Shown here in pieces: positions 1-55,998 of a stretch of 64,000 bases of DNA (the first letter of the stretch is position 1; the number at the start of each line of letters is the position of its first letter). The DNA is taken from IMG/VR virus record IMGVR_UViG_3300020451_002055. One strand, 5' to 3'. The notes below the pieces were generated by a model. The model was not told the origin of the DNA. It was given only the letters and a program-made list of their open reading frames with translations, and did no database searches. This DNA is from a virus (Duplodnaviria; Heunggongvirae; Uroviricota; Caudoviricetes). Made by a program: the position numbers and the translations under genes.

Positions 1-178
1 TTGTTCATTCGGGTCATTGCATGTTCCAGTATACCTCCTCGACTCTGACTTCTGATGGTTCGAGGATGATCAAACCCGCATTCTGCCTGACGCCCGAAGC
101 CGTCAAGCTCCTTCTCGAAGGAGGCAAGACGAGTGAGGAAGTTTTTGGTAAGGTGCAAAAACGAGAGGACGAAGCGTA

Positions 179-937: not shown

Positions 938-1606
938 ATGACGACTATGGACGCTATCATCGAGGGAGAACTCAAGGCCTTTCAGGTCGGCAAAAACATG
1001 CCGCCTCAAGGCGTAGCTCCTGCTATCGTTCTTGAGAACCCGAAGTACCCTCGCAACATCTCGATGGCGATCCGGGCAGCGTCATGCTACGGATGGAACC
1101 AAGTCTGGTATACCGGACAGCGGGTCAATCTCAGAGACCCAAGCAAGAATCTTGACGACGGGCTCGGTCGTCGGCGGGCTCGAAAAGCGGGCAAGCAGCC
1201 TCGTCTTCCGAGAGAAGAGCGAATGAAGCTATACTCTCATGTTCAGGTCCGCAACTACGACAAGCCCTTCGACCATTTCCCCGGAGCAACGCCGATCGCA
1301 GTCGAGCTTGCTGACGGGGCTCAGATGCTCCATCACTTTGAATGGCCGGAGAACCCGGTCTTGGTCTTTGGCCCCGAAGATGGAGGCGTCTCCAAGGTTT
1401 CCATGATGCATTGCCATGCAAGGGTCATCCTCCCGACTCGGGCATGCCTCAATCTAGCAACCGCTGTTGCAACCTGTCTTTACGACTGGTATTCTAAGGG
1501 AGTCATGAATGGCACGATTCCCGATCTCCGACCCGAAGAACTCTTGGCCGATGACCGCTGTTTCTTGAAAGATCAAGCAGACGGAGAACTCGACATTTTC
1601 GAATAG
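938..1606 (+). CDS. SpoU/TrmH-family (SPOUT) RNA 2'-O-methyltransferase
   Basis: SPOUT motifs VLENPKYPRNISMAIRAA, LVFGPEDGG, CLNLATA. Confidence 0.85.
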   Translation: MTTMDAIIEGELKAFQVGKNMPPQGVAPAIVLENPKYPRNISMAIRAASCYGWNQVWYTGQRVNLRDPSKNLDDGLGRRRARKAGKQPRLPREERMKLYSHVQVRNYDKPFDHFPGATPIAVELADGAQMLHHFEWPENPVLVFGPEDGGVSKVSMMHCHARVILPTRACLNLATAVATCLYDWYSKGVMNGTIPDLRPEELLADDRCFLKDQADGELDIFE

Positions 1607-1937
1607 GTTAGCATGCAAAATGCCCGAAACATCGCATCGCAAAATGCCGATATAGTAGATATAACGGCAGAACGTTTCAGTCAAGGCGAGATTCAGGCGT
1701 TTCTCTACTTCCTGCTTGCAAGTCTGGTTCTCTGCGTTGTCATGTATTGCATCGGCGCATTTATCTCCGCCCGAACTCATACCAGCTTTACTCTAACTCG
1801 CCGCCAAAGCTCTGGCGACAAGATGAGGAAGATCGACGAGGGCGAACTCTCTACGTTTGAACGAACAGAGCAGAAGACTCTACTACAGAAGCTTGCTATT
1901 TGGAACCTGCTCAGAAAGCCTAAAAGGAGTCGGAAGA

Positions 1938-2645
1938 ATGCTCATCAAACTCGTCCGTCACGGACAGTCTCAGACGAACTCGGGAGAGATACCTCACGGG
2001 TCGATTGGCGATCACAAGGTTCAGCTAACATCTCTTGGCCAGAGCCAAGCTCTCGAAGCGGGTCAAAAACTTCGGGATAGCGGCTTTGACTTTGACAACT
2101 GTCTTCTCTACTCGTCGCCGTATGCCCGAGCGATCGAGACCATGAACCATCTGCTCATCGGGGCGCAGATCGACGAGGCGGATCATCGCATCTACCAAGA
2201 TCCTCGCCTGCGAGAGGTGGATCATGGCTACAGCGACGTAGAGGCTCAAGAAGCCATGCGAAAAGAGCATGGATGGTTCTTCTACCGTTTCAAGGGCGGA
2301 GAGTCGCCAGCGGACTGCTACGACCGCTGTTGCCATTTTCTTGAGAGCATGATGCGGCAAATCGCCAGGAAGACGCCGGATCGACCCCTATTCGACGCTG
2401 AAATCACCGACAACAGACCAAATCCACTGATTGTCATGCATGGACTTACCATGCGATGCTTCGTTACCCGATGGATGCACTTGACGGTTGACCAGTTCGA
2501 GACACTCGCCAACCCCAAGAACTGCGACATCGTTACCATCGGGCACTACGAGCGTCTGGATAATCCGCAGTTCCGTCTTGGAAAATGGGGCGTTGAAGGC
2601 CTACGATTCCGAGAGTCAGACAAGGAAATGAGCGCATTGACATGA
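1938..2645 (+). CDS. histidine phosphatase (phosphoglycerate mutase family)
   Basis: LVRHGQS, SSPYARA, LREVDHG, GGES, VMHG motifs; AGGAG SD before ATG 1938. Confidence 0.9.
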   Translation: MLIKLVRHGQSQTNSGEIPHGSIGDHKVQLTSLGQSQALEAGQKLRDSGFDFDNCLLYSSPYARAIETMNHLLIGAQIDEADHRIYQDPRLREVDHGYSDVEAQEAMRKEHGWFFYRFKGGESPADCYDRCCHFLESMMRQIARKTPDRPLFDAEITDNRPNPLIVMHGLTMRCFVTRWMHLTVDQFETLANPKNCDIVTIGHYERLDNPQFRLGKWGVEGLRFRESDKEMSALT

Positions 2646-3412
2646 AAGCTGCCCTCCTCGCCATTCTGCTCGCAACAACCGCTTCGGGTCAAGTCATCGA
2701 CCATGAGCGAGATGTCTTCATTGACCATGAAGGAAATGTCGGACCCAACCTCTTTGCGTCTGGTCCGAGCGATGCGGAACTCGACCTGTCGATGGGCGAG
2801 GATGCTTGGCAGTTTCTTACGCCCGCGAGAAAGCGAATCCTTGAAAGGTACGCAAAGACATGCTACCGAGACTTCGAGGGCGAGATTTGGACGACATGGT
2901 TCTCGACGCAGATTAAGCGTCAAGACGAAGAGTACCTTGGACGCAACCCTCTTTGGTGGTTCAATCTGAACCGACAGTTCGGCGGCAATCAGTATCGACC
3001 TGTTGCTGAGGACGCCGAACCGATCTCTGCCAAAGAACTGCTCGGAGCGATGATTAACGAGGAGATCAAGCTCGTTCGATTCATCCGAGACAAGAGGGAA
3101 ACCCGAGGGCCGGTGTATCAAAGAGTCCTGGTTACAACCAACGGCTCGAAGAACTACGACGGCGATTACTCAATCCCTGAAAAGCAAGGGCCGGACGATC
3201 GCGGCGGTCTTTGGATCTATCGGAACCGTCGCGTTGACGGACCAGAATATGAGCCCATTTGGACCTTCCGAGAGCAGCGGTTTCCGACCGAGATTCTCGA
3301 ACGAAGGGTTAGCAGGTGGCGCGAGGAGAGCGATAATGGCGACCATGGTAAACGGAACTCTGACGGATCAGGCTTGGCTGAAAGAGATGGAGGCGATGAG
3401 CCCGAGAGATAG
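2642..3412 (+). CDS. hypothetical secreted protein
   Basis: N-terminal signal-peptide-like MKAALLAILLATTASG; ATGA overlap with previous gene. Confidence 0.6.
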   Translation: MKAALLAILLATTASGQVIDHERDVFIDHEGNVGPNLFASGPSDAELDLSMGEDAWQFLTPARKRILERYAKTCYRDFEGEIWTTWFSTQIKRQDEEYLGRNPLWWFNLNRQFGGNQYRPVAEDAEPISAKELLGAMINEEIKLVRFIRDKRETRGPVYQRVLVTTNGSKNYDGDYSIPEKQGPDDRGGLWIYRNRRVDGPEYEPIWTFREQRFPTEILERRVSRWREESDNGDHGKRNSDGSGLAERDGGDEPER

Positions 3413-3956
3413 GGCCAAGAAGCTTGCATTCGCGGCCCATGCCGATCAGTTTAGAGACGACGGCCAAGCCTATATCATTCACCCCTCAAGCGTTGTCGAT
3501 CGAATCGAGGCCGCAGGATGCAGCGATGAAAGAGTCATCTGCGCTGCATGGCTGCATGATGTTGTCGAAGACACAGAATGGACAAGCGGTCATATTGAAA
3601 TGCTCTTCGGCGAAGAGATCGCCGAAATTGTTGACCAGTTGACGCTTCCGGTTCCAGATCGATGGCCGCACAACTTCCATCAAGGGCGGGAGTTGAAGAC
3701 GCTAGCTCTGATGGGCAAGGCAACAATCATGTCTCCCGCCGCTAAGGTTATCAAGATCGCAGATCGCATCGATAACCTGAGTTCTGCCAAGGGAACTTGG
3801 AAGGCATCAAGGCTTGCTGCGTATGCAGTCCAAGCAGACCGTTTCTTGCAAGCCATGGAACTGACAACAACTCCCGAGATGGAGTTTTATAGAGCATACC
3901 AGGAACTTCTGACCCAAGTCAGAGACATCATCAGCAGCATCCAACAAGGACAATAA
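3336..3956 (+). CDS. HD-domain (p)ppGpp hydrolase-like protein (small alarmone hydrolase/Mesh1 type)
   Basis: AH..QFR...YIIHP, AAWLHDVVEDT, IKIADRIDNL motifs of RelA/SpoT hydrolase domain. Confidence 0.85.
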   Translation: MATMVNGTLTDQAWLKEMEAMSPRDRAKKLAFAAHADQFRDDGQAYIIHPSSVVDRIEAAGCSDERVICAAWLHDVVEDTEWTSGHIEMLFGEEIAEIVDQLTLPVPDRWPHNFHQGRELKTLALMGKATIMSPAAKVIKIADRIDNLSSAKGTWKASRLAAYAVQADRFLQAMELTTTPEMEFYRAYQELLTQVRDIISSIQQGQ

Positions 3957-4224
3957 CTTGTTTAAGCAAATTGCCAACTTCAAACACAAGGAACCTCAAA
4001 AGGTCATCTCTGAGAATGGAGACAAGGGGGCCGGAGAGGTGATTTGCTCATGCGGGCACCAATTCACTCATGACCTGTTTCATAACATGCAGGCATACAT
4101 GGGCTTCATTTATCCCGTTTGTCCTGAATGCGGGGTTGTCCCTTCTTCTACTACAAGGCGATGCGACCTGTAGGTATTGCTCTGGCTTGCCGAAAAAGAA
4201 GTATCACTTCTTTGGAGGCAACTC

Positions 4225-4449
4225 ATGGCTCAAGCAATTCTCTACGTCGTTGGTGCCGATGGCACGTTTACCGTAACGGAACCCGATCTAACTGGTAAGG
4301 CTATCGTTGATGTCATCATTCCTGATGGCCTTCCATTGTCGTTTGCTGTCAACCAGCTATCTGCATTGATTCAGCAGTTCAACTTTCCAGGTAATCCTCC
4401 AGTCGATTATTCGCTCGTTATCTTTCGGGTAACAGTCGGATCAGCGTGA
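4225..4449 (+). CDS. small hypothetical protein
   Basis: GGAGG SD before ATG GCT CAA. Confidence 0.55.
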   Translation: MAQAILYVVGADGTFTVTEPDLTGKAIVDVIIPDGLPLSFAVNQLSALIQQFNFPGNPPVDYSLVIFRVTVGSA

Positions 4450-4648
4450 TTCATTGAAGGGCATTGACGAGCAATGCCGAATGGGGTATGATGGACGAGG
4501 TAAAGGCTCGCTTCGCTGAGTATGCGAGGCGAGAGAAAGAAATAAGGGATGCTCGAATCCGAGAACTCCCTTGGAACGAGCGATGGATGTTTTTGACGAT
4601 CGGAGATATCGTCGGATTCTTCGCTCAAAGTTACAGGAGGCTATACCG

Positions 4649-5011
4649 ATGGCTTAGAATGATGTAAACCAAGAAACTCAGTACCTTTATGTGCTTGTGC
4701 GGTCTGACCTGAGTCCCGCTCAACAAGCAGTCCAAAGCTGCCATGCAGTTCTCGAAGCGGGTAACGTCTTCTACGACCCGTAGACTCAGGACCATCCACA
4801 TCTGATTATACTCTCTGTCCGCGACGAACGAGCCTTGTTCAAGGCAGCGTCGAAGCTATCCAATTCTGGCTACGATTTCAGAGAGTTCAGAGAACCTGAC
4901 ATTGGAAATGAGTTGACCGCAATCGCTTGCAGACCTGTCTGCGGCGAGAAGCGATCGTTGTTTAGTAACTACCCGCTGATGGGTAATGGTATCGTTGCGC
5001 ATTCAAAGTAA
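4649..5011 (+). CDS. Pth2-like peptidyl-tRNA hydrolase containing two in-frame TAG codons (4655-4657, 4781-4783)
   Basis: Manual translation: MA*NDVNQETQYLYVLVRSDLSPAQQAVQSCHAVLEAG...DP*TQDHPHLIILSVRDE...FREPDIGNELTAIA; VR.DL...AQ..HA is the Pth2 signature; AGGAGG SD. Confidence 0.8.
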
Positions 5012-5023
5012 AAGGAGAATACA

Positions 5024-5617
5024 ATGCAACAGGAAATGACAATCAACGCAAATGGCACTGAGACTTTCAAGAGCAACTGGGGCTACCACCCTTGCGATCA
5101 TGAGACGTTCCGCAAGATCAAGAAGCTCCGCCGCTATTACTACGAGTCTCTCCCGAAAGCTGCGGCCTACTACCGATGGGCTCGAAAGGCAGAGCATAAC
5201 CGCAAGGGCAACGAGCCTTCGGTTCCTCCTGTCTTCTGCGAGATCGTTCCGGCCAATGGTCATGGGAGAAAGCTCGACAACAGCAACTTCAACCCGAAGA
5301 TGGGCTACACGAGTTCCGAAAGAACCATCGGCAAGTCGTTCTGGATCAAGTGCGACAAGGGCGAAGGTTTTATCTACTCGATCCCTATGGGATACAAGCC
5401 CGAACTGGTCGAGAGCAAATGGGGAAACTACACTGTTCAGCGACCAGCCGGTCTCAACCATGACAAGACTGTCGTTGTTGAAGACCTGGATATCAATGCT
5501 CTTTACGAGCGGGCACGAATGCCTCAAGAATCGCCCGACAAGGTTGTGAAGCTCTATCTCAGCGTCGAAGAAATCGACGATATGTTGAGTGAACTCGAAC
5601 AGTTCTTCGGGCACTAA
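5024..5617 (+). CDS. hypothetical protein
   Basis: AAGGAG SD, 197 aa ORF. Confidence 0.75.
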   Translation: MQQEMTINANGTETFKSNWGYHPCDHETFRKIKKLRRYYYESLPKAAAYYRWARKAEHNRKGNEPSVPPVFCEIVPANGHGRKLDNSNFNPKMGYTSSERTIGKSFWIKCDKGEGFIYSIPMGYKPELVESKWGNYTVQRPAGLNHDKTVVVEDLDINALYERARMPQESPDKVVKLYLSVEEIDDMLSELEQFFGH

Positions 5618-5724
5618 TACTCAACCATGCCACTCGGAAACGGGCGGCATGGCATTACAGGTGCAGGCGAGTTCGAGTAAAATGTTCTTCGAGTAAAAGT
5701 CTGCCATCAGAATCAGGTAACAGA

Positions 5725-7626
5725 ATGACGCAAACTTCAACCGCATATGACGGATCGTCTATCCAAGTCCTCAAAGGTCTCGAAGCTGTCCGGATGCGTC
5801 CGGGCATGTATATCGGGGACTCAGGTAAAAAGGGGCTCCATCACCTCGTATGGGAAATCGTTGACAACGCCGTCGATGAGGCGATGGCAGGTCATTGCGA
5901 TCGCATCAGTATCGAGATCGCGGAAGACGGAGAAACGGTCTCTGTTGAGGACAATGGTCGAGGCATTCCGGTTGACATGCATCCAACCGAGAAGAAACCG
6001 ACTCTCGAAGTCGTTCTGACAACGCTTCACGCAGGCGGTAAGTTTGGCGGTTCAGGATATACGGCCTCCGGCGGTCTTCATGGCGTCGGGGCGTCTTGCG
6101 TGACGGCCCTCAGCGAAAAGATGGTCGCTACCGTCTGCCGAGACAAGAGCGTCTACGAGATGACATTCTCCCGAGGCGGCGTCGTCAAACAGATGAAGAA
6201 GGTCGGCCCCATGAAGCGAGGCCAGAAGAATGGCACTCGCATCGAATGGAGAGCGGACCCGGAAATCTTCAAGGCTGGCGTTGAGCTTGATGAAAAGGTT
6301 CTTGTCAACCGACTTAGAGAAGTCGCATACCTCAACCGAGGACTGACCGTCGCCTTCGAGAACAAGAAGACGGGCACGAAGTACGAGTTCATGTTCGAGG
6401 GCGGCATCGCCGACTATGTTTCGTACCTCGTCGAAGACAAGTCCGGTCAATACCCGAGCGAACCCATCTTTATCGAGGGTCAAGAAGATGACATGAGGGT
6501 TCAGATTGCTCTCATGTATACGGAAGACGAAGACGAGACCGTACTGACCTTCTGCAACAACATCAATACCGTCGATGGCGGAACGCACCTCTCCGGATTC
6601 CGTTCAGCTTTGACCAGAGTCATCAATAACTTCTACAAGTCGGTTGGAGGCAAGAAAGACAAGGATGACAATCTCGGCGGCAACGATGTCCGAGAGGGAT
6701 TGACCGCCGTTGTCAGCGTTCTCGTTCCCCAGCCCGAACTCGTCGGACAGACAAAGGCGAAGCTCGGAACGGTCAAGGCGGAAGGCGTTACCAGTTCTGT
6801 TACCACAGAGCAGTTGACCGCTTTCTTCGAGAAGAACGCTCCGATCGTCAAGCAGATCATCGAGAGAGCAAAGCTTGCTCAGAGGGCTCGCAATGCCGCT
6901 CGCAAGTCTGCGGACATCATCAAGCGAAAGGGAGTCTTCGGGAGCAGCGGGGGTATGCCCGGTAAGCTCTACGACTGCCAGGCGAAGGATCGCAGCACGA
7001 CCGAACTCTATATCGTCGAGGGCGACTCGGCTGCCGGTTCTGCAAAGGGCGGCAGAGACGCATCGACTCAGGCGGTCATGCCTATCCGAGGTAAAATGAT
7101 CAATGCTGAGAAGCATGGAATAGCTGCTCTTCTCAAGAACAAAGAAGTAGTCGATCTCATCAAGGCCATCGGTACTGGCGTCAAAGATGATTTCGACATC
7201 GACAAGCTGAGGTACGGCAAGATCATCATTATGGCCGACGCCGATGATGACGGCTCGCACATCGCTACGCTTCTGATGACATTCTTCTTCCGCTTTATGA
7301 AGCCGCTTGTTACCGGCGGGCACCTTTATATTGCTATGCCGCCTCTCTATGTCGTTCGCAAGGGCAGTAAATCCATCTACTGCTGGAACGATAAAGACAA
7401 AGACGATGCCCTTAGCAAAATGGCAGGCGGCAAAGTGACTCGATTCAAGGGTCTTGGCGAAATGGATGAAGAACAGCTTGGAGACACGACGATGGACCCG
7501 GACAACCGGCGACTCGTTCGTCTCGAAGTCAACGATTTGGCCGAGGCTGAGAAGGTTGTTTCTGTTCTTATGGGAACGAACGTCGCTGCTCGCAAAGAAC
7601 GACTCAAAGAAAACATCAACGAGTAA
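5725..7626 (+). CDS. gyrB: DNA gyrase subunit B
   Basis: GLEAVRMRPGMYIG, EIVDNAVDE, GGLHGVG, IVEGDSA, DADDDG, RFKGLGEM. Confidence 0.97.
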   Translation: MTQTSTAYDGSSIQVLKGLEAVRMRPGMYIGDSGKKGLHHLVWEIVDNAVDEAMAGHCDRISIEIAEDGETVSVEDNGRGIPVDMHPTEKKPTLEVVLTTLHAGGKFGGSGYTASGGLHGVGASCVTALSEKMVATVCRDKSVYEMTFSRGGVVKQMKKVGPMKRGQKNGTRIEWRADPEIFKAGVELDEKVLVNRLREVAYLNRGLTVAFENKKTGTKYEFMFEGGIADYVSYLVEDKSGQYPSEPIFIEGQEDDMRVQIALMYTEDEDETVLTFCNNINTVDGGTHLSGFRSALTRVINNFYKSVGGKKDKDDNLGGNDVREGLTAVVSVLVPQPELVGQTKAKLGTVKAEGVTSSVTTEQLTAFFEKNAPIVKQIIERAKLAQRARNAARKSADIIKRKGVFGSSGGMPGKLYDCQAKDRSTTELYIVEGDSAAGSAKGGRDASTQAVMPIRGKMINAEKHGIAALLKNKEVVDLIKAIGTGVKDDFDIDKLRYGKIIIMADADDDGSHIATLLMTFFFRFMKPLVTGGHLYIAMPPLYVVRKGSKSIYCWNDKDKDDALSKMAGGKVTRFKGLGEMDEEQLGDTTMDPDNRRLVRLEVNDLAEAEKVVSVLMGTNVAARKERLKENINE

Positions 7627-24802: not shown

Positions 24803-25777
24803 ATGACAGAAACAGCGAACTTCCATTCGATGACCTTCTTTTTCAGAGACAATCCTGACAAGATTGACTCGGAAGAAGGCTTTTCGCAATGCACGTTCAT
24901 GATGGACCTCATGCAACTGCATAAGCTCGGAAAGATTGAACTGGACCTGAGCGGTCATTTCCTTTCGAATGCTCCCGACTCCAAAACGTACTACGTCAAC
25001 CGCGGCGGCGATGAGGGTGCAGGCTTTATCGCCAGGCTGTCTTGCCCGCATACCAAGATCGACATCCAAGAAGCCGCAAGAGTCATCGAGGCTTGCGTCG
25101 AGGGCAGGACAACCGATCCGATCGAGTTCTATGCCTCTCGCTTCTCCCAATGCGGAGAATGCGGCGAAAGGCTGATGTTCTCATTCGACGGCAAGAACTT
25201 CAAGGTCGTCAATGAATGCCCAAAGCCCAACGGTTGTCTACCCTACAGCTTCGACATCGAGGTGCCTTCGGGTAAGCTTTACGTCGCAAACGATCTGAGG
25301 CGTGCTTGGCCTGAACTCGACTGCCGCGAAGCGGAGCCGCCGGACGACGGCAAGTGCCGGGATATCAACTCCCGCATCGGCTGCGTCAACACAACGCTTG
25401 ACTACGCAGCAGCGGGCATGGCCCATGTCTTTGTCGGCAACTCCTGTCCGAGCGTCTACAAAACCGGAGATGGCTTCCTTATCGGATGCTCGGGCTACGA
25501 CGACGATGACAATGAGATTCCGATCCCCGGAGTCCTCGAACAAGTCGCCTCGATCTGCACCGATCTTTGGTGGTACTGCATCGTTGATGAGTCCGAGCTA
25601 CTCGGCAGGTTTCTCAAGAATGTCGAGTTCGAAGGGACGTTCGAAAAATGGGTTAAGGCTCATAACTGCGATATCATCGATGTCGAGCCGGGCACCTATC
25701 GCTTCGAGGTTCTTCCATACGACTCGGAGGCTTGGAGAGAGCCAACGATCTATACCAGAATCAGGAGAGTCGGCTGA
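24803..25777 (+). CDS. hypothetical protein
   Basis: Long ORF, CxxC, AGGA SD. Confidence 0.75.
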   Translation: MTETANFHSMTFFFRDNPDKIDSEEGFSQCTFMMDLMQLHKLGKIELDLSGHFLSNAPDSKTYYVNRGGDEGAGFIARLSCPHTKIDIQEAARVIEACVEGRTTDPIEFYASRFSQCGECGERLMFSFDGKNFKVVNECPKPNGCLPYSFDIEVPSGKLYVANDLRRAWPELDCREAEPPDDGKCRDINSRIGCVNTTLDYAAAGMAHVFVGNSCPSVYKTGDGFLIGCSGYDDDDNEIPIPGVLEQVASICTDLWWYCIVDESELLGRFLKNVEFEGTFEKWVKAHNCDIIDVEPGTYRFEVLPYDSEAWREPTIYTRIRRVG

Positions 25778-26073
25778 TGAGACGGTCATCGAGAGACGCG
25801 ACCGCCAAGATCAACGGCAACATCGAGGTCGAGGTCGGCGACATCATCTGGACCTATGACGGCATCCTGCGGCGACCGGTCATGTGCGTCTTTTTCAGGA
25901 TCAATCGAGACAAGTGGCTTCGGGTCAAGAAGCATCCATACATCGAGCCTCATCAAGGCGAATGGCATTCTGACCTGCCGGAAAAGTTCTTCTCGACGAA
26001 GCAAGAGTGCATTGATGCCGAAATTTCGCGTCTCCGGGCTTTCACCGAATCAGCCTAGCTGCTACTGTATGGC

Positions 26074-26382
26074 ATGAGCCGCGAGAAGCGACGAGCCCGA
26101 CAGGAGTTCCGTCAAGGCGTTTTGGATCGCGACGGCCATCGGTGCGTCATCTGCGGCGTTCAGCCGGGGGATGATGGACTCGACGCTCACCACATCATCG
26201 ACAGGCACGACATGCCCAACGGCGGATACGTCAAGGAGAACGGCGTGACGCTATGCCATGACTGCCATCCGCTTGCGGAACGGGAGCATCAAGGGCTTGA
26301 TCCAGTGCCGGGTCTGAGTCGAGCAGAGCTTTTCGCGGCCATTGGGTCGAGCGAGGAAGAGGCCAGACATGCCGACCGCTGA
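26074..26382 (+). CDS. small HNH endonuclease
   Basis: RDGHRCVIC...DAHHI...NGVTLCHDCH. Confidence 0.85.
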   Translation: MSREKRRARQEFRQGVLDRDGHRCVICGVQPGDDGLDAHHIIDRHDMPNGGYVKENGVTLCHDCHPLAEREHQGLDPVPGLSRAELFAAIGSSEEEARHADR

Positions 26383-32663: not shown

Positions 32664-33120
32664 ATGAAGACTTGTTCAAAATGCAAAGAAAGCAAACTTG
32701 AAGAATGCTTTGCTAAAAAGACCAAAGGTAAATTGCAGCCTTGGTGTAAGAACTGTAACAGGTCGTATCAAAAGAGCCATTACAAAGCAAATAAGCAGAA
32801 GAGAGTTTCTCAGGTAAATGAGTACAAGAAAGATCGAAGACTACAACTCAGGCAAAGACTTTATCAGTTCTTGCTTGAAAACCCATGCGTAGACTGCGGA
32901 GAAAATGATCCTGTCGTTCTTGAGTTTGACCATGTTCGAGGACAAAAAAACAAGCGACATAAGCTCCATGATCGGCCAATGCTCTTCATGGGACAGGATA
33001 CAAGATGAAATAGCGAAATGCGAAGTACGATGCGCCAATTGCCATCGAAAACAAACAGCAATACGTCAAGGCTGGAAAGTGCAATGGCAGCAAGCAGGAG
33101 AAGATTTCAATGTCAGATAG
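32664..33120 (+). pseudogene. HNH endonuclease frameshifted at A7 run (32944-32950)
   Basis: Frame 1 ends ...CVDCGENDPVVLEFDHVRGQK; next frame continues KTSDISSM...EIAKCEVRCANCHR. Confidence 0.8.
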
Positions 33121-33409
33121 TGAACAACAAGAGATTCGTCTGCATGGTCCTCATCCGGGCCTTCTCGGAGCCGCTGCTCCGATACCCGAGGAACTACGGC
33201 TTGCAGCCAATGAGCTTGATGGGAAGACCATGAAGCAGATTGATGCTTGGCATGCTCTCAACCGGGTGGCAGTTGAGCTACCGGGTGTCGAACTCAAAGA
33301 ACGCAACTCTTGTTTCCTCGCGACGCTTATGAGTGACGGTCGTCCTGTTCATTGTTGGAGAGTTATCAGTTTCGAGCCAACCGAAGTCGCAGGTGGCAAC
33401 AGCGAGTGA
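33110..33409 (+). CDS. hypothetical protein
   Basis: AGGAG SD. Confidence 0.6.
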   Translation: MSDSEQQEIRLHGPHPGLLGAAAPIPEELRLAANELDGKTMKQIDAWHALNRVAVELPGVELKERNSCFLATLMSDGRPVHCWRVISFEPTEVAGGNSE

Positions 33410-33444: not shown

Positions 33445-33519
33445 GGCCCTATCGTCTAGTCAGGTCTAGGACTCCAGGTTTTCATCCTGGCAACCGGGGT
33501 TCAAATCCCCGTAGGGTCA
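33445..33519 (+). tRNA. tRNA-Glu(TTC)
   Basis: GGCCCTA/TAGGGTC, CCAGG-TTTTCAT-CCTGG, GGTTCAAATCC. Confidence 0.92.
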
Positions 33520-35118: not shown

Positions 35119-36151
35119 GAGCAAAACCGACCCCTGATCCATTATAGTAACGGGTAGCAATCGATTGCTTGATTGGCAGCGGAACCTTCCGGCCAATCTG
35201 GCCGATAGCCGCCTGCACATCAATGATGCCGTTTCCGTATTTGGCATCTTTACCCGCATCACCTAGATCAATGGAGGTCTTTCTAAGATGCTCTCGAACG
35301 TCCTCGACCGTGTTGACCGGAGTTCTACCGCCGAACTTTCTATGCTTGGCAATCATCAGGGCAACAATACCCGTTATCCAAGGAGTCGCAAACGAGGTGC
35401 CCGACGATCGGCGGTATTCGCTGCCCGGAAACGTACTGCGAACGTCAACGCCGGGGGCGACGAAATCGAGGTTAGGGCCAGTGTTGCTGAAGTCTGCTTT
35501 CAGGACATCCCTATCGACAGCCCCTACCGCAATGGTCTCCCTGTAAGCAGCAGGCCAAACGACATCGCTATGCTCGTCGAGGCCGAAATTGCCCGCTGCG
35601 CAGATCATCGGGATGTCAGCTTCGTAAGCCCGGCGTACCGCATCGGTCAGCCAGGTATTGTTCGCGCTCATGTAGATCGAGAAGTTGATGATATCGACGC
35701 CATCGTCGATGGCCTGATGGATTCCATTCAGGATATCGTCGTAGCTTCCGCCTGCTTCGGCGTTGAGGCAACGGTAGGGTCTGACTTGAGCCTTCGGTGC
35801 AACTCCATGTACGCCGTGGCCGTTGCGTTTGGCACAGATGATGCCGGTAACGAACGTTCCGTGGCCGTGTTCATCCGACATCGGACTATCCGGGTTCACA
35901 AAAGCCTTACCCGGAAGAAGATTACCCGTCAAGTCAACATGATTGATGTCGCAACCGGAGTCGATGACTCCGACGACAACGCCCTCTCCTTCGGTCTGAT
36001 GCCAGACAGAAGGGACATGGTAGTTAGCGATCTGGTATGCGCTCTCGTTCTCCCAAGAACGAGGGTCCACGATGTCATCTGCTCCCGCAGCTTTGGCCGA
36101 GTAGTTCATGCCCTTCTTTTCTGTCTCAAGTACCTCCTTTCCTCCATGCAT
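35087..36151 (-). CDS. S8 (subtilisin-like) serine peptidase
   Basis: VIDSG, HGHGT, AAGN, SGTSFATP catalytic motifs. Confidence 0.93.
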   Translation of the reverse strand: MHGGKEVLETEKKGMNYSAKAAGADDIVDPRSWENESAYQIANYHVPSVWHQTEGEGVVVGVIDSGCDINHVDLTGNLLPGKAFVNPDSPMSDEHGHGTFVTGIICAKRNGHGVHGVAPKAQVRPYRCLNAEAGGSYDDILNGIHQAIDDGVDIINFSIYMSANNTWLTDAVRRAYEADIPMICAAGNFGLDEHSDVVWPAAYRETIAVGAVDRDVLKADFSNTGPNLDFVAPGVDVRSTFPGSEYRRSSGTSFATPWITGIVALMIAKHRKFGGRTPVNTVEDVREHLRKTSIDLGDAGKDAKYGNGIIDVQAAIGQIGRKVPLPIKQSIATRYYNGSGVGFAPILSSGPRSR

Positions 36152-36329
36152 TCCGCAAAGCGAGTGAAAGACGACGGCGATAGCATGGCAACATGGAACG
36201 ACTCGTCTTCTTCATCGGACTCACTCTGTTCATTCTCGGAATCGCCGGATGCAGCTTCCATGAGGGCAACACCGAGCCTATGGGGTGGGCTGCTTTCATC
36301 GGTTTTTTGATGATGAGCGGCGATATTAG

Positions 36330-39575: not shown

Positions 39576-39941
39576 ATGAGACTTCTTGCCTCCATACTGA
39601 TTGCCGCATGCTTGCTTCTCTCTGGCTGCAGCGATCCTGTCAAAGACCTTGGTCATTCGTATAGATACTCCATCTCAGAGGCCTTCATCGTCGTCGAGGT
39701 CTACCATGACGAAGAAACGATTGGTCAGGAGTATGCTCTGGCGGTCTACAATATTACTTCGATCAAGGATTATGAAACCTACCAGGAGACTCCCTTTGTA
39801 GTCGTCAAGACCGCAGACGGGGAGTCGTTTTATCTGTACGACATCACCATGCGCGAGTTTTTGGCCCTGTCTGGCGAGGCAATGGGGCCATGGATGCTCG
39901 ATTTTCCTGCCTCGTCAGTACCTCAAAGGAGTAGTCCATGA
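39576..39941 (+). CDS. putative lipoprotein
   Basis: Lipobox LLSGC after signal peptide. Confidence 0.7.
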   Translation: MRLLASILIAACLLLSGCSDPVKDLGHSYRYSISEAFIVVEVYHDEETIGQEYALAVYNITSIKDYETYQETPFVVVKTADGESFYLYDITMREFLALSGEAMGPWMLDFPASSVPQRSSP

Positions 39942-40663
39942 GTTTCTTTACAACGCAGAGAAAAGCGCCGACATTGTTTTGGTGCATGGTCATCGCGTTC
40001 ATCGCGTTGATGGCATTTCCCGCTGACGCATTCGGTCAGCGAAGCAGAAGCAGAAGCAGCGGGAGCCGCAGCAGCTACAAGCAACCCTCAAGGAACAAGA
40101 GCGCTTCGCAGAACCGTTCGAGAACCAACAAGCAGGCTCGACCGTCCCAGAAGAACAACAGCAGCAAAAGCTGGGGCAGCAGCAACAAGAGCAAGTCAAC
40201 GAAGGCAACCAAAGCCGATCGCGCTCTGCATGATCGAGCCAAGAAGCAGGGAACTCATTTCCAGAACCGACAGCAAGCGACGGCTGCATTTGCTACAAAG
40301 AAGGGACCGGAGCTTCGCGCGAAGAACCCGGTTCGCTTCGACAGCAAGCCAGCAACGAGGCCGAGCTACATTCCGCAGACCTATTCATCTGGCGGTAATA
40401 CATACAACATCTCTTACAATCCTGGCTACGGCGGGTACGGCTACATGAACGCATTGGGTACATGGGTCATGTATGACATCATGTGGAACCAGGCCTTCGT
40501 CAACAACCAGATGCGAACCTACGGCTACGCATACGGTCCTGCTCCATCTGCCGGGCCGGGTGCCGGAATGGTTCTCGGCATCATCGTCGGCGTCGTTGTC
40601 ATCGGAGGCGTTATCTTCTTCGTTGTCGCATCGAACAGCGAGAGCGAAAGCAGAGCCGCCTAA
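39938..40663 (+). CDS. secreted/membrane protein with Ser/Arg-rich low-complexity region
   Basis: Signal peptide, RSRSRSSGS, C-terminal TM. Confidence 0.75.
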   Translation: MSFFTTQRKAPTLFWCMVIAFIALMAFPADAFGQRSRSRSSGSRSSYKQPSRNKSASQNRSRTNKQARPSQKNNSSKSWGSSNKSKSTKATKADRALHDRAKKQGTHFQNRQQATAAFATKKGPELRAKNPVRFDSKPATRPSYIPQTYSSGGNTYNISYNPGYGGYGYMNALGTWVMYDIMWNQAFVNNQMRTYGYAYGPAPSAGPGAGMVLGIIVGVVVIGGVIFFVVASNSESESRAA

Positions 40664-47630: not shown

Positions 47631-47761
47631 CGTGCAGTAGCTCAACAGGTAGAGCGGCAGTCAAAAAGGTCCATGACCGATTTGCTTGCTCGTTTCGAGT
47701 TGAAGGTTGATGGTTATCTATCGCAAAACTGCTTGTGGAGGTTCGAGTCCTTCCTGCACGA
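47631..47761 (+). ncRNA. tRNA-shaped RNA with Y-like stem in anticodon loop (C)
   Basis: Acceptor CGTGCAG/CTGCACG, anticodon stem GCAGT/ACTGC; insert CTT-GCTCG TTT CGAGT-TGA...GGTTATC. Confidence 0.8.
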
Positions 47762-53445: not shown

Positions 53446-53730
53446 TTACATGATCATTGGGTCTTCAGGAACGACTTGTATATTGCCATTTATCTGCATC
53501 AACAAGTTCTGCTGATGCATAGTCAGTTGACCGCCTTGCTCGTTTGCAACCATCATAGATGCAGAATTAGCAGCATTGTAGATTTCATCAGGCATCAAAA
53601 GGCCTTCATCTACTGCATCTAGGTTATGCATTAGGTCTGGCACATGCACGTCTTGATCCCTAGCAGACCTGAGCCAGCCAACTATGAGGTTGACCATATT
53701 CATGTTTTGGGCTCTTTTATACCAGTTCAT
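53446..53730 (-). CDS. hypothetical protein (MNWYK N-terminus)
   Basis: ATGA-coupled ORF. Confidence 0.65.
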   Translation of the reverse strand: MNWYKRAQNMNMVNLIVGWLRSARDQDVHVPDLMHNLDAVDEGLLMPDEIYNAANSASMMVANEQGGQLTMHQQNLLMQINGNIQVVPEDPMIM

Positions 53731-54473
53731 CGTTGAATGCTAAAGTTGAAAAGCCTTGCATCATCTTTGGATGTAGCTTCATGATCATACTCTTTGAGGT
53801 AAAGGGTGTCTTCGCTGAATCCCCTAGATACTAGATACTCGCAAAACTCTCTCCAACCTTTGATAATACCGTTTATCTCGCCTCCGAAAGCGCTCGCATG
53901 AAGCTCTCCAACGATGCGGTCTACTTTGTTGAGGAGACTGGAGGTATAGAGAATTTCAAACTCGGAGCCTTCGCAATCAAGCTTGAGTATATCTATCTTC
54001 TTGAACCCGTCAGATATAGCTCCATCGATGATCTCGTCTAAGCCTATAGATTCAACAGCTAGCTTACCTGTAACAGAACAAACGCTTGCTCCGGTATTTT
54101 GGATATTTCGATACTTAGGGATACTCTCATTCATAATGGGAAACTGATCATCTAGGATATAGACCTGTTCTTTTATATCGCTGCGCCATACCGCCTTGTT
54201 CCAAGATTGTATGAGAGGGTTGTTGCCTGTATTTTTCAGAAGGTACTTGAAGTTTTCCGGATGAGGCTCGAAGGCATAGACGACTGCTCCCCTCTGAGCG
54301 GCGGCCAGGGCAAAGACTCCGATATGCGCTCCTACGTCGATGCAGCATTGCCTCTCCATGGACAGAGAACGCTTTTTGAGAGTTGTAACGAAATGCTCAG
54401 GAAGGCCATAATTGTTGGTGCCGAAAATTTCGTCAACGATCATAGAGTCGATTGTATTGGGTCTTAGAAACAT
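53727..54473 (-). CDS. FkbM-family methyltransferase
   Basis: IDVGAHIG, AFEP, LKLDCEGSE. Confidence 0.9.
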   Translation of the reverse strand: MFLRPNTIDSMIVDEIFGTNNYGLPEHFVTTLKKRSLSMERQCCIDVGAHIGVFALAAAQRGAVVYAFEPHPENFKYLLKNTGNNPLIQSWNKAVWRSDIKEQVYILDDQFPIMNESIPKYRNIQNTGASVCSVTGKLAVESIGLDEIIDGAISDGFKKIDILKLDCEGSEFEILYTSSLLNKVDRIVGELHASAFGGEINGIIKGWREFCEYLVSRGFSEDTLYLKEYDHEATSKDDARLFNFSIQR

Positions 54474-54479
54474 AGTTGC

Positions 54480-55070
54480 CTAGGCATTCTTAGTATAGCC
54501 CATTCTGGTTAGCGCCCTTGCAATATCTCTTGAGGTTTCCTGAATCGCTGATTCGTCAAAATCCCAAAAGCATGCATAGAGCATATAGGTGATATACTGC
54601 GATAGCTCCTTTTCTCCCTTGAGACTGACCCTCATACGCAGAACTTTGTTCTTTGTATAGGGAGATGAAACTTCTCCATTGACTCCGGTTTTTAGACCAG
54701 AGACTCGTTCGTGCTTATATCTTTTACCGCGGAGAAGAAGATACTGAGCCTTTTTGCCCTGATAGCCTTCTTCATCGCTCATATGCCAACCGAATCGCCA
54801 CAGAGCGCGGGCGATATCAGAGGCAGATTGCTCAATCCCCTCTTCGCTCACATCCCAGAAGCAAGCATGAAGCATTTCATGAATCAATACGTCCAACCGG
54901 CGTTCGCCCTTGAGTCCAGAGAAGTATCGTATGGTACGATTGGGGCTATTCGGACTTGAACAGTCTCCGTAAATAGGGCTCTCTTCAGGTCCAAGCTTAG
55001 ACGCTAGTATAACTCGATAGCTTCGCTTCCGTAATGTGATCCTCTTGATGTTCTCAAAGGCTTTGCGCAT
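54480..55070 (-). CDS. tandem-duplicated HExxH domain protein
   Basis: IHEMLHACFWD repeated as ITYMLYACFWD. Confidence 0.7.
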   Translation of the reverse strand: MRKAFENIKRITLRKRSYRVILASKLGPEESPIYGDCSSPNSPNRTIRYFSGLKGERRLDVLIHEMLHACFWDVSEEGIEQSASDIARALWRFGWHMSDEEGYQGKKAQYLLLRGKRYKHERVSGLKTGVNGEVSSPYTKNKVLRMRVSLKGEKELSQYITYMLYACFWDFDESAIQETSRDIARALTRMGYTKNA

Positions 55071-55998
55071 CTTCCTTCTTCTCTGCCGCCACAGACAGGA
55101 ACTCATACACGGTCGGATTCGTTACCAGGTCTTCAGGAGTCGCATTTGCAGGAACGAGTTCTGTCAGCAACCTGTATACTACTGAATCGGCATGATCCTG
55201 CGAAATCGGTACGGACTCCCGATAGAAACCTATGTCTCCCATGTATTCGTGACAAGCATGCGAACCGGAAATGATGCTTGGAGCAAAACTAAAGGGGATA
55301 ATCCCTTGCAGGATAGCAAGTATCGTCGTTTCTATATGGTCAGAAGCTATTTTCTTGCAGTTTCTTAGTCTAATACCATTGGACTTAGAATGTATGTATT
55401 CTGCCCCTATATTTGAAGCAAAGTTCTCGGCAACTTTGCGTGTTTCTATTGGAAATGACGAATCGGTCAGAACTTGGTCAAATCGGATGTCGTGTTTTTC
55501 AAAGAGATCAATGGACCTCTGAGTGTCTATAAGACATCGAGCGGGCACATAAACTTCATGACCATCTTCTGCAGGACCGCTCCTTGCAACGCCATGATCC
55601 TTCATGAAGCTGTCAAGTCCCCTGCGACCCATTTTGGTCAAGGGCTTCCTCCAATTGGTCTGCTTGCATATACGACTATGCTTGCCCCAGCCTTCCATAT
55701 CATAGAGGAAGGTATATGACCTGAACGGAGAAGAGTCTACGAACAAGCAGTTCTTATAGCGGACATGCTTGTGTATCTCGCCATCGTTGTTGTTCTGCAG
55801 TATGACACTATCTGCTGAGGCTATTCTTTCATGGATATGGCTGAGAGGACAATCATCATAATGAATCCATTCGTATTCAAATCCATGATCCGCGAGTAAA
55901 AACTCGATAGCTCCTGCTGCTCTAAATCTATAGTTGGAAGAGGTTGCAAGTACAATCATTTGTTGCTTCCGGGTTTGTATTGATGGGTTGTCTGCCAA
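55054..55998 (-). CDS. hypothetical protein, possibly glycan-modifying
   Basis: Within GT cluster, coupled overlaps. Confidence 0.6.
   Translation of the reverse strand: MADNPSIQTRKQQMIVLATSSNYRFRAAGAIEFLLADHGFEYEWIHYDDCPLSHIHERIASADSVILQNNNDGEIHKHVRYKNCLFVDSSPFRSYTFLYDMEGWGKHSRICKQTNWRKPLTKMGRRGLDSFMKDHGVARSGPAEDGHEVYVPARCLIDTQRSIDLFEKHDIRFDQVLTDSSFPIETRKVAENFASNIGAEYIHSKSNGIRLRNCKKIASDHIETTILAILQGIIPFSFAPSIISGSHACHEYMGDIGFYRESVPISQDHADSVVYRLLTELVPANATPEDLVTNPTVYEFLSVAAEKKEDAQSL

What the first reader, a model, noticed from the sequence alone, without database searches (positions are those of the whole stretch)
4649..5011. Hidden Pth2-like gene gated by two in-frame amber codons
Seen: AGGAGG-ATG GCT TAG, then an intact-looking Pth2-like frame with a second TAG at 4781 in a probable loop, ending TAA. 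No frameshift. TAG is a normal stop elsewhere in the window. Two stops of the same type, both outside conserved motifs, look more like design than decay. Inference: the hydrolase is made only when UAG termination fails (RF1 inhibited or a suppressor tRNA present). The Met-Ala minigene also resembles lambda bar minigenes that cause peptidyl-tRNA drop-off, the substrate of Pth.
Basis: partly seen in the sequence, partly recalled or inferred. Interest (0 to 1): 0.8.

Follow-up and report, generated by a model that had tools for sequence, protein, structure and literature searches.

The report
Suppressor-tRNA-gated phage Pth2-like gene
A giant marine phage that otherwise uses the normal genetic code keeps two UAG stop codons inside a small tRNA-hydrolase-like gene and carries its own UAG-reading tRNA 4.8 kb upstream, so the enzyme is probably made only when that tRNA overrides the stop; dozens of distant phages, several lab-grown, share this layout.

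Summary
The sequence reads AGGAGG, 8 nt, ATG GCT TAG (4649-4657), with a second in-frame TAG at 4781-4783 and TAA at 5009-5011.

The read-through product is a confidently folded PTH2-type protein (pLDDT 92.9; best PDB matches are all Pth2).

It is not decay:
- Three relatives at 73-81% identity keep ATG-NNN-TAG, although synonymous sites are near saturation.
- dN/dS is 0.06-0.18 on both sides of the second TAG.
- That codon is TAG, CAG or AAG in relatives.
- Two assemblies besides the window's record, from other read sets, carry both TAGs.

The window holds no tRNA(CUA). The same phage has one 168-241 nt before window base 1, on the same strand.

In 80 IMG/VR loci:
- 62 are TAG-gated; 53 of them have a tRNA(CUA) within 6 kb.
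- 2 are TGA-gated, both with a tRNA(UCA).
- There is no mismatched pair.

Cultured phages BF, fHe-Yen9-04, CBB, RsoM2USA and Arash share the gate. Their records leave the gene unannotated or truncated.

The phage is not code 15, because TAG ends conserved genes and the long genes are intact.

Best reading: a gene-specific translational gate that depends on the suppressor tRNA. This is comparative evidence only.

Earlier notes of this scan describe the same motif on other DNA (53 notes, at least 47 genomes). I found no paper describing it.

The parts
1..1 (+). Placeholder for a part that lies outside the window. The phage's tRNA(CUA) sits 168-241 nt upstream of window base 1 (L064:8822-8895), on the same strand, about 4.8 kb upstream of the gated ATG.
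   Evidence: ARAGORN gives anticodon cta. L064 is identical to the window over 11,606 nt. Rfam tRNA score is 61 bits against a cut-off of 29, with a full cloverleaf. It has no initiator hallmarks: G1-C72, and only two G-C pairs at the bottom of the anticodon stem (read).
4464..4492 (+). Promoter-like site, TTGACG-17-TATGAT, about 157 nt upstream of the ATG.
   Evidence: Best consensus match in 3300-5800, 10 of 12. This is a consensus match only. Relative L015 has TTGACA-17-TAGAAT at the equivalent place (read).
4635..4640 (+). Shine-Dalgarno sequence AGGAGG, 8 nt before the ATG.
   Evidence: An SD-like purine run precedes the leader ATG in the relatives too.
4649..4657 (+). Leader ATG GCT followed by the first gate codon TAG (4655-4657).
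   Evidence: ATG-NNN-TAG is kept in L015, L016 and L018. M-X-stop is the commonest leader, in 46 of 64 gated loci.
4658..4780 (+). Codons 4-44: the N-terminal tail, strand 1 (R-x-D-L motif) and helix 1 (Q29, H32).
   Evidence: dN/dS is 0.18 against L015 and 0.05 against L018.
4781..4783 (+). Second gate codon TAG (codon 45), in the loop between helix 1 and strand 2.
   Evidence: It is TAG in L015, CAG in L016 and AAG in L018. A TAG at the same or an adjacent column recurs in L079, L081-L085, L089, L101 and L103.
4784..5011 (+). Codons 46-120 and the terminator TAA: the rest of the PTH2-like fold, with invariant E82, D84 and T90.
   Evidence: dN/dS is 0.17 and 0.065. In the 22 homologues checked first, the terminal stop is TAA or TGA and never TAG.

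Best explanation
Window 4649-5011 is a live gene for a divergent PTH2-fold (peptidyl-tRNA-hydrolase-like) protein of 120 residues. Its translation needs UAG to be decoded twice, at codon 3 and at codon 45.

Proposed mechanism:
- Ribosomes load at a strong Shine-Dalgarno sequence and the ATG.
- Without a UAG reader they stop after Met-Ala.
- When the phage's own elongator tRNA(CUA) is made and charged, it competes with RF1 at both UAGs and the full protein is produced. That tRNA is encoded about 4.8 kb upstream on the same strand.
- Output therefore follows suppressor activity, roughly as its square in this two-gate copy.
- Both gates lie where the inserted residue should not matter: the disordered N-terminal tail and a variable surface loop.

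Shown here: the anatomy, the fold, the selection, the tRNA, and the pairing of gate stop with anticodon across phages.

Inferred: that the tRNA is expressed, charged and really reads these codons; which amino acid it inserts; whether the gate serves as a timer, a dose limiter or a sensor; and the enzyme's substrate.

A plausible purpose, by inference only: once stop codons are being overridden, more ribosomes run past their stops and stall, so a peptidyl-tRNA-clearing enzyme is made only then.
For: (1) Conservation. ATG-NNN-TAG in frame with the ORF is present in all three close relatives, while pS between them is 0.56-0.73.

(2) The same leader-plus-stop occurs in distant phages: 64 of 80 IMG/VR loci, and cultured Serratia BF, Yersinia fHe-Yen9-04, Pectobacterium CBB, Ralstonia RsoM2USA and Salmonella Arash.

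(3) Selection. dN/dS is 0.05-0.18 between the two TAGs and 0.065-0.17 after the second. In the eight codons right after the first TAG, window and L018 differ mostly by synonymous changes (pN 0.10, pS about 1). That stretch therefore appears to be translated, although no start codon follows the TAG.

(4) Codon 45 is TAG, TAG, CAG, AAG in the four relatives.

(5) The same phage has a canonical tRNA(CUA).

(6) Co-variation. Of 62 TAG-gated loci, 53 have a tRNA(CUA) within 6 kb and none has a tRNA(UCA). Both TGA-gated loci have a tRNA(UCA), as do L009/L010 of the first scan.

(7) The gene's own terminator differs from the gate stop in all but one locus.

(8) The product is a real fold. pLDDT is 92.9. 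Foldseek's best hits are all Pth2 (2zv3, 1wn2, 3erj, 1q7s, 1xty; TM 0.66-0.73). The family profile hits PDB Pth2 sequences at E 2.6e-7.

(9) The gate is gene-specific. GyrB, GyrA and a 968-aa gene are intact under table 11. Standard ORFs cover about 90% of the window. TAG terminates conserved genes.
Against: - There are no expression, charging or proteomic data.
- The tRNA lies outside the window. I reached it through a second assembly of the same phage, not through the window's own record.
- TAG ends about 7% of this phage's genes, with no nearby back-up stop: 12 to 250 codons to the next TAA or TGA. A strong suppressor should therefore be costly, which argues for weak or brief suppression.
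- Nine TAG-gated loci showed no tRNA(CUA) in the flank fetched; some of these contigs are cut short.
- Some homologues sit beside a tRNA(CUA) without any gate: Myrna, L100, L125. Part of the linkage may therefore only reflect both genes living in tRNA islands.
- The single protein scores under Pfam's PF01981 cut-off (20.1 against 23 bits).
Confidence: 0.75

Rival explanations
1. Genome-wide or block-wise stop-codon reassignment (genetic code 15, TAG read as Gln). Under this reading the two TAGs are ordinary Gln codons and nothing about this gene is special.
For: A gene caller read the L015 contig with TAG=Q. Codon 45 is CAG in L016. The phage has a tRNA(CUA). Code-15 jumbo phages are known (PMC13037316; Borges et al. 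preprint 10.1101/2021.08.26.457843, listed).
Against: - Standard-code ORFs cover about 90% of the window, and the long conserved genes have no in-frame TAG (GyrB 633 aa, GyrA 832 aa, one of 968 aa).
- TAG ends 3 of 44 called genes and aligns with TAA at the end of the zinc-ribbon gene.
- A scan of 83 kb found no other convincing ATG-leader-TAG gene, and no candidate read-through product had a domain spanning its TAG.
- The gate is kept in phages of enterobacteria whose records are annotated throughout under the standard code.
- TAG at codon 3 is fixed where synonymous sites have turned over.
Confidence: 0.05
2. A mechanism that does not use the tRNA. The ATG-GCT-TAG is a start-stop mini-ORF that controls re-initiation at a downstream start. 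Alternatively, read-through happens only when RF1 is limiting, and the neighbouring tRNA(CUA) is incidental.
For: In L016 an in-frame ATG follows the TAG (M-Y-L-Y). Gene callers do find GTG or ATG starts near the core in many homologues. Mini-ORFs that couple translation are common in phages (general knowledge).
Against: - The second TAG lies inside the folded domain and cannot be bypassed by re-initiation.
- In the window, L015, L018, BF, CBB and RsoM2USA no ATG lies between the TAG and strand 1.
- The codons just after the TAG evolve as coding sequence.
- The gate stop type tracks the anticodon of the neighbouring suppressor, TAG with CUA and TGA with UCA, which a tRNA-free mechanism does not predict.
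Confidence: 0.08
3. The leader acts as a bar-like minigene. Met-X-tRNA dropped off at the near-start UAG would be the physiological signal or the substrate, so the gene senses or answers peptidyl-tRNA load rather than simply following the suppressor.
For: The leader is a two-codon ORF behind a strong Shine-Dalgarno sequence, in 46 of 64 gated loci. L018 even reads ATG ATA TAG, the lambda bar codons as I recall them. The product is Pth-like.
Against: The last sense codon is not conserved: GCT, ACA, TTG, ATA, TCA, ACG, AAA, CTG. Leaders of 3, 4 and up to 10 codons also occur. No route from drop-off to translation of the downstream frame is evident. Nothing here measures drop-off.
Confidence: 0.08
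4. A decaying pseudogene with two chance nonsense mutations, or a sequencing or assembly artefact.
For: There are two premature stops. The gene is unannotated or truncated in public records.
Against: - The TAGs are identical in L064 and L065, assembled from other read sets.
- The first TAG is conserved in all close relatives and in most distant ones.
- dN/dS is far below 1 on both sides of the second TAG.
- There are no frameshifts, and the catalytic-type residues are invariant.
Confidence: 0.02

Closest known systems
Stop-codon recoding in phages with phage-encoded suppressor tRNAs (code 15, TAG read as Gln; crAss-like and Lak phages; Borges et al. 10.1101/2021.08.26.457843; Peters et al. PMC9523058)
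   Same: A phage of a standard-code host carries a tRNA(CUA) and has in-frame TAG in a conserved gene. It has been proposed there that in-frame stops delay translation until the suppressor is active.
   Different: Here the rest of the genome is read by the standard code and TAG still terminates genes. The recoding is confined to one small gene, and in some phages per earlier notes to a few. It sits at a fixed place, within the first few codons, and is conserved across very distant jumbo phages, including cultured phages of enterobacteria.
Peptidyl-tRNA hydrolase 2 (PF01981; PDB 2zv3, 1wn2, 3erj, 1xty, 1q7s), noted in jumbo phages by Iyer et al. 2021 (PMC7824862)
   Same: Same fold (TM 0.66-0.73). 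The family profile matches PDB Pth2 sequences. The R-x-D-L, Q..H-A and acidic-residue...T-A motifs line up.
   Different: This is a divergent clade: the single sequence scores below Pfam's cut-off. The G-K-G-K segment of archaeal Pth2 is shortened. The acidic residue aligned with the D of D-A-G is an invariant Glu (E82). Activity and substrate are untested. That paper does not mention the in-frame stop or a link to suppressor tRNAs.
prfB (RF2) autoregulation through an in-frame UGA
   Same: An early in-frame stop codon in a gene of the translation-termination and recycling sphere makes output depend on how that stop is decoded.
   Different: prfB uses a +1 frameshift at codon 26 with an internal Shine-Dalgarno sequence, and its product reads the very stop. 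Here the ORF stays in frame and a dedicated tRNA does the decoding. Feedback from the Pth2-like product onto UAG decoding is only a possibility.
Lambda bar minigenes (two-codon ORFs toxic to Pth-deficient cells)
   Same: A Shine-Dalgarno sequence, ATG, one sense codon and a stop. There is a thematic link to Pth.
   Different: bar elements are free-standing and are not followed in frame by a gene. Their effect depends on particular last codons. Here the sense codon varies, and the stop is always the one matched by the phage's suppressor.
Orphan suppressor tRNAs of cultured jumbo phages (XacN1, PMC5852040; RsoM2USA, PMC8504454)
   Same: The same kind of tRNA(CUA) in standard-code jumbo phages. 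The authors reported no identified target.
   Different: RsoM2USA does have an unannotated Pth2-like ORF that begins ATG TTG TAG, which is a candidate target. XacN1's homologue (ORF364) has no in-frame stop, so its suppressors remain unexplained.

Membership tests
PTH2 peptidyl-tRNA hydrolase (PF01981) | The sequence matches the Pfam model at or above the gathering score. | tested here: not met
   P0001 scores 20.1 bits against a cut-off of 23, E 7.5e-4, covering profile positions 3-99 of 115. More distant relatives P0006-P0011 carry precomputed PF01981 hits.
PTH2 peptidyl-tRNA hydrolase (PF01981) | Homology to solved Pth2 proteins at family-profile level. | tested here: met
   The profile of A1 against PDB sequences gives 24bt_A at 2.6e-7, 2zv3_A at 2.1e-6, 1wn2_A at 4.1e-5, then 1rzw, 1xty and 1q7s. 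The alignments are near full length.
PTH2 peptidyl-tRNA hydrolase (PF01981) | The Pth2 alpha/beta fold. | tested here: met
   The AF2 model has pLDDT 92.9 and pTM 0.84. Foldseek's top 11 PDB hits are all Pth2 or Bit1, with probability 1.00 and TM 0.61-0.73.
PTH2 peptidyl-tRNA hydrolase (PF01981) | Catalytic residues. From memory, Lys18 and Asp86 in S. solfataricus numbering. | tested here: inconclusive
   Invariant E82 aligns with the D of the D-A-G motif. The G-K-G-K lysine segment has no clear counterpart. Q29, H32, E82 and T90 are invariant in 88 sequences. The residue roles are recalled, not checked.
PTH2 peptidyl-tRNA hydrolase (PF01981) | Hydrolyses peptidyl-tRNA. | not testable with these tools
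   This needs an enzyme assay or complementation of a pth(ts) strain.
Code-15 (TAG=Gln) recoded phages | A phage-encoded tRNA with anticodon CUA. | tested here: met
   L064:8822-8895, the same phage, 61 bits.
Code-15 (TAG=Gln) recoded phages | In-frame TAG spread over many genes or a genome block, with TAG not used as a terminator there. | tested here: not met
   Long genes are intact under table 11. TAG ends 3 of 44 called genes and aligns with TAA in a relative. No other convincing gated ORF was found in 83 kb. Only about 17% of the 486.8-kb genome was visible.
Lambda bar-type minigene | A free-standing two-codon ORF with a Shine-Dalgarno sequence, whose expression is toxic when Pth is limiting, with dependence on the last sense codon. 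| tested here: inconclusive
   The form is met: SD, ATG, GCT, stop. It is not free-standing, since the frame continues into a conserved gene. The last codon varies among relatives. Toxicity is not testable here.
prfB-type autoregulatory recoding | A +1 frameshift at the in-frame stop, stimulated by an internal Shine-Dalgarno sequence. | tested here: not met
   The downstream ORF is in the zero frame with the ATG in every relative.

The most novel reading that the evidence does not exclude
The gate and the enzyme form a closed loop. The UAG codons measure how strongly the phage's suppressor tRNA is overriding termination. The Pth2-like product then acts on the consequences, or on the suppressor itself. 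For example, it could hydrolyse peptidyl- or aminoacyl-tRNA(CUA), or clear the peptidyl-tRNA of ribosomes that ran past their stops. The phage would thereby hold a temporary change of the genetic code within safe bounds. This would be a prfB-like homeostat built from a tRNA and a hydrolase, and it would explain why the two genes travel together even where the gate is absent.
Probability: 0.15. Interest if true: 0.9.

Novelty: new variant of a known kind. Interest (0 to 1): 0.72.

Why it matters
Suppressor tRNAs in standard-code jumbo phages have been reported repeatedly with no known target (XacN1, RsoM2USA, Summit). This gene is a concrete, conserved candidate target for at least some of them, for example RsoM2USA.

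It is a natural example of single-gene control by a phage-borne stop-codon reader. It is distinct from wholesale code change.

It can be tested directly, because lab-grown phages of Serratia, Salmonella, Pectobacterium, Yersinia and Ralstonia have the same layout.

It also exposes a systematic annotation gap. The gene is missing or truncated in GenBank records. PHROG 34073 matches only the part after residue 47, and CBB_406 is a 77-aa fragment of that kind. In Myrna and Arash the tRNA that ARAGORN reads with anticodon CUA is annotated as tRNA-Ser and tRNA-Phe.

For this window specifically, the two-gate version suggests tighter, roughly squared, dependence on suppression.

Tried and rejected
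- **Search for a tRNA(CUA) inside the window.** ARAGORN and Rfam find 14-15 tRNA-like genes and none reads UAG. The extra Rfam hit at 47631-47761 has about 59 nt inserted in the anticodon loop. ARAGORN's intron mode gives only a poor tRNA-Ile(TAT) model. I dropped it as a suppressor candidate.
- **-1 frameshift fusion with the upstream ORF 4464-4667.** There is no slippery site, and it would not remove the second TAG.
- **The tRNA(CUA) as an initiator that starts at UAG.** It lacks the 1:72 mismatch and the three G-C pairs. The Shine-Dalgarno spacing fits the ATG, not the TAG. It cannot explain the internal TAG.
- **Pyrrolysine.** ARAGORN's 'tRNA-Pyl' label only reflects the anticodon. The tRNA has an ordinary cloverleaf.
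- **The base after the gate TAG as a suppression context.** It is always a purine, but so are the bases after this phage's ordinary TAG terminators. It is uninformative.
- **Other read-through candidates** (938-2077, 3958-4446, 25666-26379, 35138-36307, 39776-40660, 53730-55106 minus strand). No domain spans the TAG. The zinc-ribbon pair are separate genes in L016.
- **ATG AAA TAG at 33005.** No homologues were found.
- **The HD_4 gene (about 3396-3956).** I found no gated start for it: it is read in a different frame from the nearest TAG (3410-3412), and the leader scan flagged nothing there.
- **XacN1 as a gated example.** Rejected. Its homologue has no in-frame stop.
- **Identity of the inserted amino acid, from nearest tRNA paralogues.** Inconsistent: Arg in the window phage, Met or Leu in BF, Gln in LR756511. 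One relative's suppressor has a long variable arm.
- **Reaching the whole 486.8-kb scaffold.** The record is not held. An exact-match scan of IMG/VR found nothing.

Full report
**1. What is in the sequence**

- AGGAGG lies at 4635-4640, followed by an 8-nt spacer.
- ATG GCT TAG occupies 4649-4657.
- Forty-one open codons follow, then a second TAG at 4781-4783.
- Seventy-five more open codons follow, then TAA at 5009-5011.
- Everything is in one frame.
- No ATG lies between the first TAG and the conserved core.
- A promoter-like site (TTGACG-17-TATGAT, 4464-4492) is the best consensus match nearby.

The window looks like part of a giant phage. Genes are densely packed on one strand, there are 14 tRNA genes, and gyrB and gyrA lie just downstream.

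Exact protein look-ups place the window at about 198,969-262,968 of a 486,833-bp Tara Oceans scaffold. The same phage was assembled from other samples too. The Logan contig L064 is identical to the window over 11,606 nt. L064 and the separate Tara scaffold L065 both carry both TAG contexts. This rules out an assembly slip.

**2. What the frame encodes**

Read through, the 120-residue product gives only a weak Pfam PTH2 match (E 7.5e-4, below the cut-off).

Stronger evidence comes from the family as a whole:
- A profile of it and ten relatives hits solved Pth2 proteins at 2.6e-7 to 4e-5, over almost the full length.
- An AlphaFold model built on 88 sequences has mean pLDDT 92.9.
- Foldseek's best eleven PDB matches are all Pth2 or Bit1, with TM 0.61-0.73.

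The family is large: 4,634 cluster representatives at E <= 0.001. Q29, H32, E82 and T90 are invariant, and R18, D20 and D84 nearly so.

It is a divergent Pth2-like clade. Its activity and substrate are untested, and the lysine segment of archaeal Pth2 has no clear counterpart.

In the model:
- The first TAG lies in the unstructured N-terminal tail (residues 1-11).
- The second lies in the loop 42-50 between helix 1 and strand 2.
- The second TAG's alignment column holds W, Q, P, K and S in relatives.

**3. Design or decay**

Three close relatives from Logan contigs settle this (73-81% protein identity).
- All three keep ATG-NNN-TAG in frame with the ORF (ATG ACA TAG, ATG TTG TAG, ATG ATA TAG), each behind a purine-rich ribosome-binding site.
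- At codon 45, L015 again has TAG, L016 has CAG and L018 has AAG.
- Synonymous sites between these sequences are close to saturation (pS 0.56-0.73).
- dN/dS is 0.05-0.18 between the two TAGs and 0.065-0.17 after the second.
- In the eight codons directly after the first TAG, window and L018 differ mostly by synonymous changes (pN 0.10, pS about 1). That stretch therefore appears to be translated, although nothing downstream of the TAG could start it.

A pseudogene would not behave this way.

**4. How far the feature extends**

The same leader-plus-stop is found far beyond the close clade:

| Phage or locus | Leader |
|---|---|
| Serratia phage BF | M-T-H-stop |
| Yersinia phage fHe-Yen9-04 | M-S-H-stop |
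| Pectobacterium phage CBB | M-A-Q-stop |
| Ralstonia phage RsoM2USA | M-L-stop |
| Salmonella phage Arash | M-L-stop |
| 595-kb uncultured phage LR756511 | M-T-H-stop |

In these GenBank records the gene is either unannotated or cut to a C-terminal fragment. CBB_406 is such a fragment of 77 aa. This probably explains why PHROG 34073 matches only residues 48-114.

In a profile-seeded scan of IMG/VR I classified 80 loci:
- 62 have a TAG gate.
- 2 have a TGA gate.
- 16 have none.
- M-X-stop is the commonest leader (46 of 64).
- The gene's own terminator differs from the gate stop in all but one locus.
- A second TAG in the same loop recurs in several separate clades (L079, L081-85, L089, L101, L103).

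**5.

The window itself has no tRNA(CUA). The same phage has one 168-241 nt upstream of window base 1.
- It lies on the same strand, about 4.8 kb before the gated ATG (L064:8822-8895).
- It is a complete cloverleaf scoring 61 bits.
- It has an ordinary elongator shape and no initiator hallmarks.

Other phages show the same pairing:
- BF has a tRNA(CUA) 3.2 kb downstream of its gene.
- LR756511 has one about 8 kb away.
- Arash has one 1 kb away.
- Myrna has one 130 nt away.

In the IMG/VR set, 53 of the 62 TAG-gated loci have a tRNA(CUA) within 6 kb and none has a tRNA(UCA). Both TGA-gated loci have a tRNA(UCA), as do L009/L010 of the first scan.

This co-variation is the strongest argument that the stop is decoded by the phage's own suppressor.

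The suppressors differ in acceptor stem, discriminator base and even class; one has a long variable arm. Their nearest paralogues also differ. The inserted residue probably varies among phages. That fits gates placed where residue identity should not matter.

**6. Not a general code change**

- Standard-code ORFs cover about 90% of the window.
- GyrB, GyrA and other long genes, conserved at about 82% with L018, have no in-frame TAG.
- TAG ends 3 of 44 called genes.
- At the end of the zinc-ribbon gene, TAG in the window, L015 and L018 aligns with TAA in L016.
- A scan of 83 kb (window plus flanks) for ATG-short-leader-TAG followed by a long open frame found only this gene and one unsupported candidate at 33005.
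- None of eight candidate read-through products had a domain spanning its TAG.

Only about a sixth of the genome was visible to me.

**7. Mechanism proposed**

Ribosomes start at the ATG. RF1 and the phage tRNA(CUA) then compete at codon 3, and again at codon 45. Full-length protein appears only while the suppressor is active, and roughly as the square of its efficiency here.

The data cannot say whether the gate acts as a timer, a dose limiter or a sensor.

One point argues for weak or brief suppression. The phage's ordinary TAG terminators have no nearby back-up stops, so strong suppression should be costly.

A functional rationale, by inference: overriding stops sends ribosomes past their proper ends, and a peptidyl-tRNA-clearing enzyme would be useful exactly then. 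Iyer et al. (PMC7824862) had proposed ribosome rescue for jumbo-phage PTH2. They do not mention the in-frame stop or the tRNA link.

The bolder idea is that the enzyme feeds back on the suppressor. It remains possible. It would also explain ungated homologues that still sit next to a tRNA(CUA), such as Myrna, L100 and L125.

**8. Comparison with the literature and with this scan**

What the papers I could search report:
- Genome-wide TAG recoding with suppressor tRNAs.
- PTH2 in jumbo phages.
- Orphan suppressor tRNAs: XacN1 with 'no potential genes targeted', and RsoM2USA.

None links a suppressor to a stop at the start of the Pth2-like gene.

RsoM2USA's unannotated ORF that begins ATG TTG TAG is a candidate target for its suppressor. 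XacN1's homologue is not gated.

Earlier notes of this scan describe the same motif on other DNA: 53 notes in at least 47 genomes. I re-derived the main claims independently here, namely the gate, the nearby tRNA, the stop-anticodon co-variation and the cultured examples. One note reports an amber-gated HD gene and an amber-gated leader peptide in another phage. In this window I found no gated start for the HD_4 gene, and I did not look for such a leader peptide.

**9. Verdict**

- The bar-minigene analogy is formal only.
- This is a new variant of phage stop-codon recoding: gene-specific, fixed in position and widely conserved. This window carries a two-gate copy.
- Nothing is experimental yet.

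Noticed in passing
window 47631-47761 (+): An Rfam tRNA hit (49 bits) with about 59-65 nt inserted in the anticodon loop. ARAGORN misses it unless introns are allowed, and then gives only a poor Ile(TAT) model.
   Followed up: partly
window 3958-4449 (+); L015:551-1030: The zinc-ribbon gene ends ...R-R-C-D-L-TAG and is in frame, with no further stop, with the next gene (ATG at 4225). The arrangement is the same in L015, so suppression would make a fusion protein. In L016 the two are separate genes 1.6 kb apart and the first ends in TAA.
   Followed up: partly
window 1604-2089 (+): The SpoU-methylase gene (938-1606) ends in TAG, and its frame then stays open for 160 codons, overlapping the His_Phos_1 gene. 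No gene is called on the + strand at 1613-1938.
   Followed up: no
window 33005-33409 (+): ATG AAA TAG is followed by 131 open codons, with the first ordinary start only at codon 32. It lies just before tRNA-Glu at 33445 and overlaps the preceding gene's TGA. It has the same form as the M-K-stop leaders of distant Pth2-like genes, but there is no Pfam or phage homologue to test it.
   Followed up: partly
L075 (Mycobacterium phage Myrna, NC_011273:33522-33593); L077 (Salmonella phage Arash, OQ632216:49176-49247): ARAGORN reads these tRNAs with anticodon CTA. They are annotated in the records as tRNA-Ser (Myrna gene 86) and tRNA-Phe (Arash). Both lie next to the Pth2-like gene.
   Followed up: no
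L146 (IMGVR_UViG_3300048599_000213): An ungated Pth2-like homologue whose own terminator is TAG sits 1.5 kb from a tRNA with anticodon TTA, an ochre reader. This is a third suppressor type beside this gene family.
   Followed up: no
L020, L021, L073, L076, L077 (BF, fHe-Yen9-04, CBB, RsoM2USA, Arash): In public records of cultured phages the Pth2-like gene is missing or cut to a C-terminal piece: CBB_406 is 77 aa and Arash gp84c is 50 aa. PHROG 34073 (profile length 77) matches only residues 48-114 of the window's protein, so it may be built from such fragments.
   Followed up: partly
window 4491-4667 (+); L016:about 5850-6015: A small upstream ORF of about 58 aa ends ...Y-R-R-L-Y-R-W-L-R-M-M. 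It overlaps the leader in another frame in the window. A weakly similar ORF in L016 is in the same frame as the leader and ends at the very gate TAG. It is unclear whether it is a real gene or promoter and 5'-UTR sequence.
   Followed up: no
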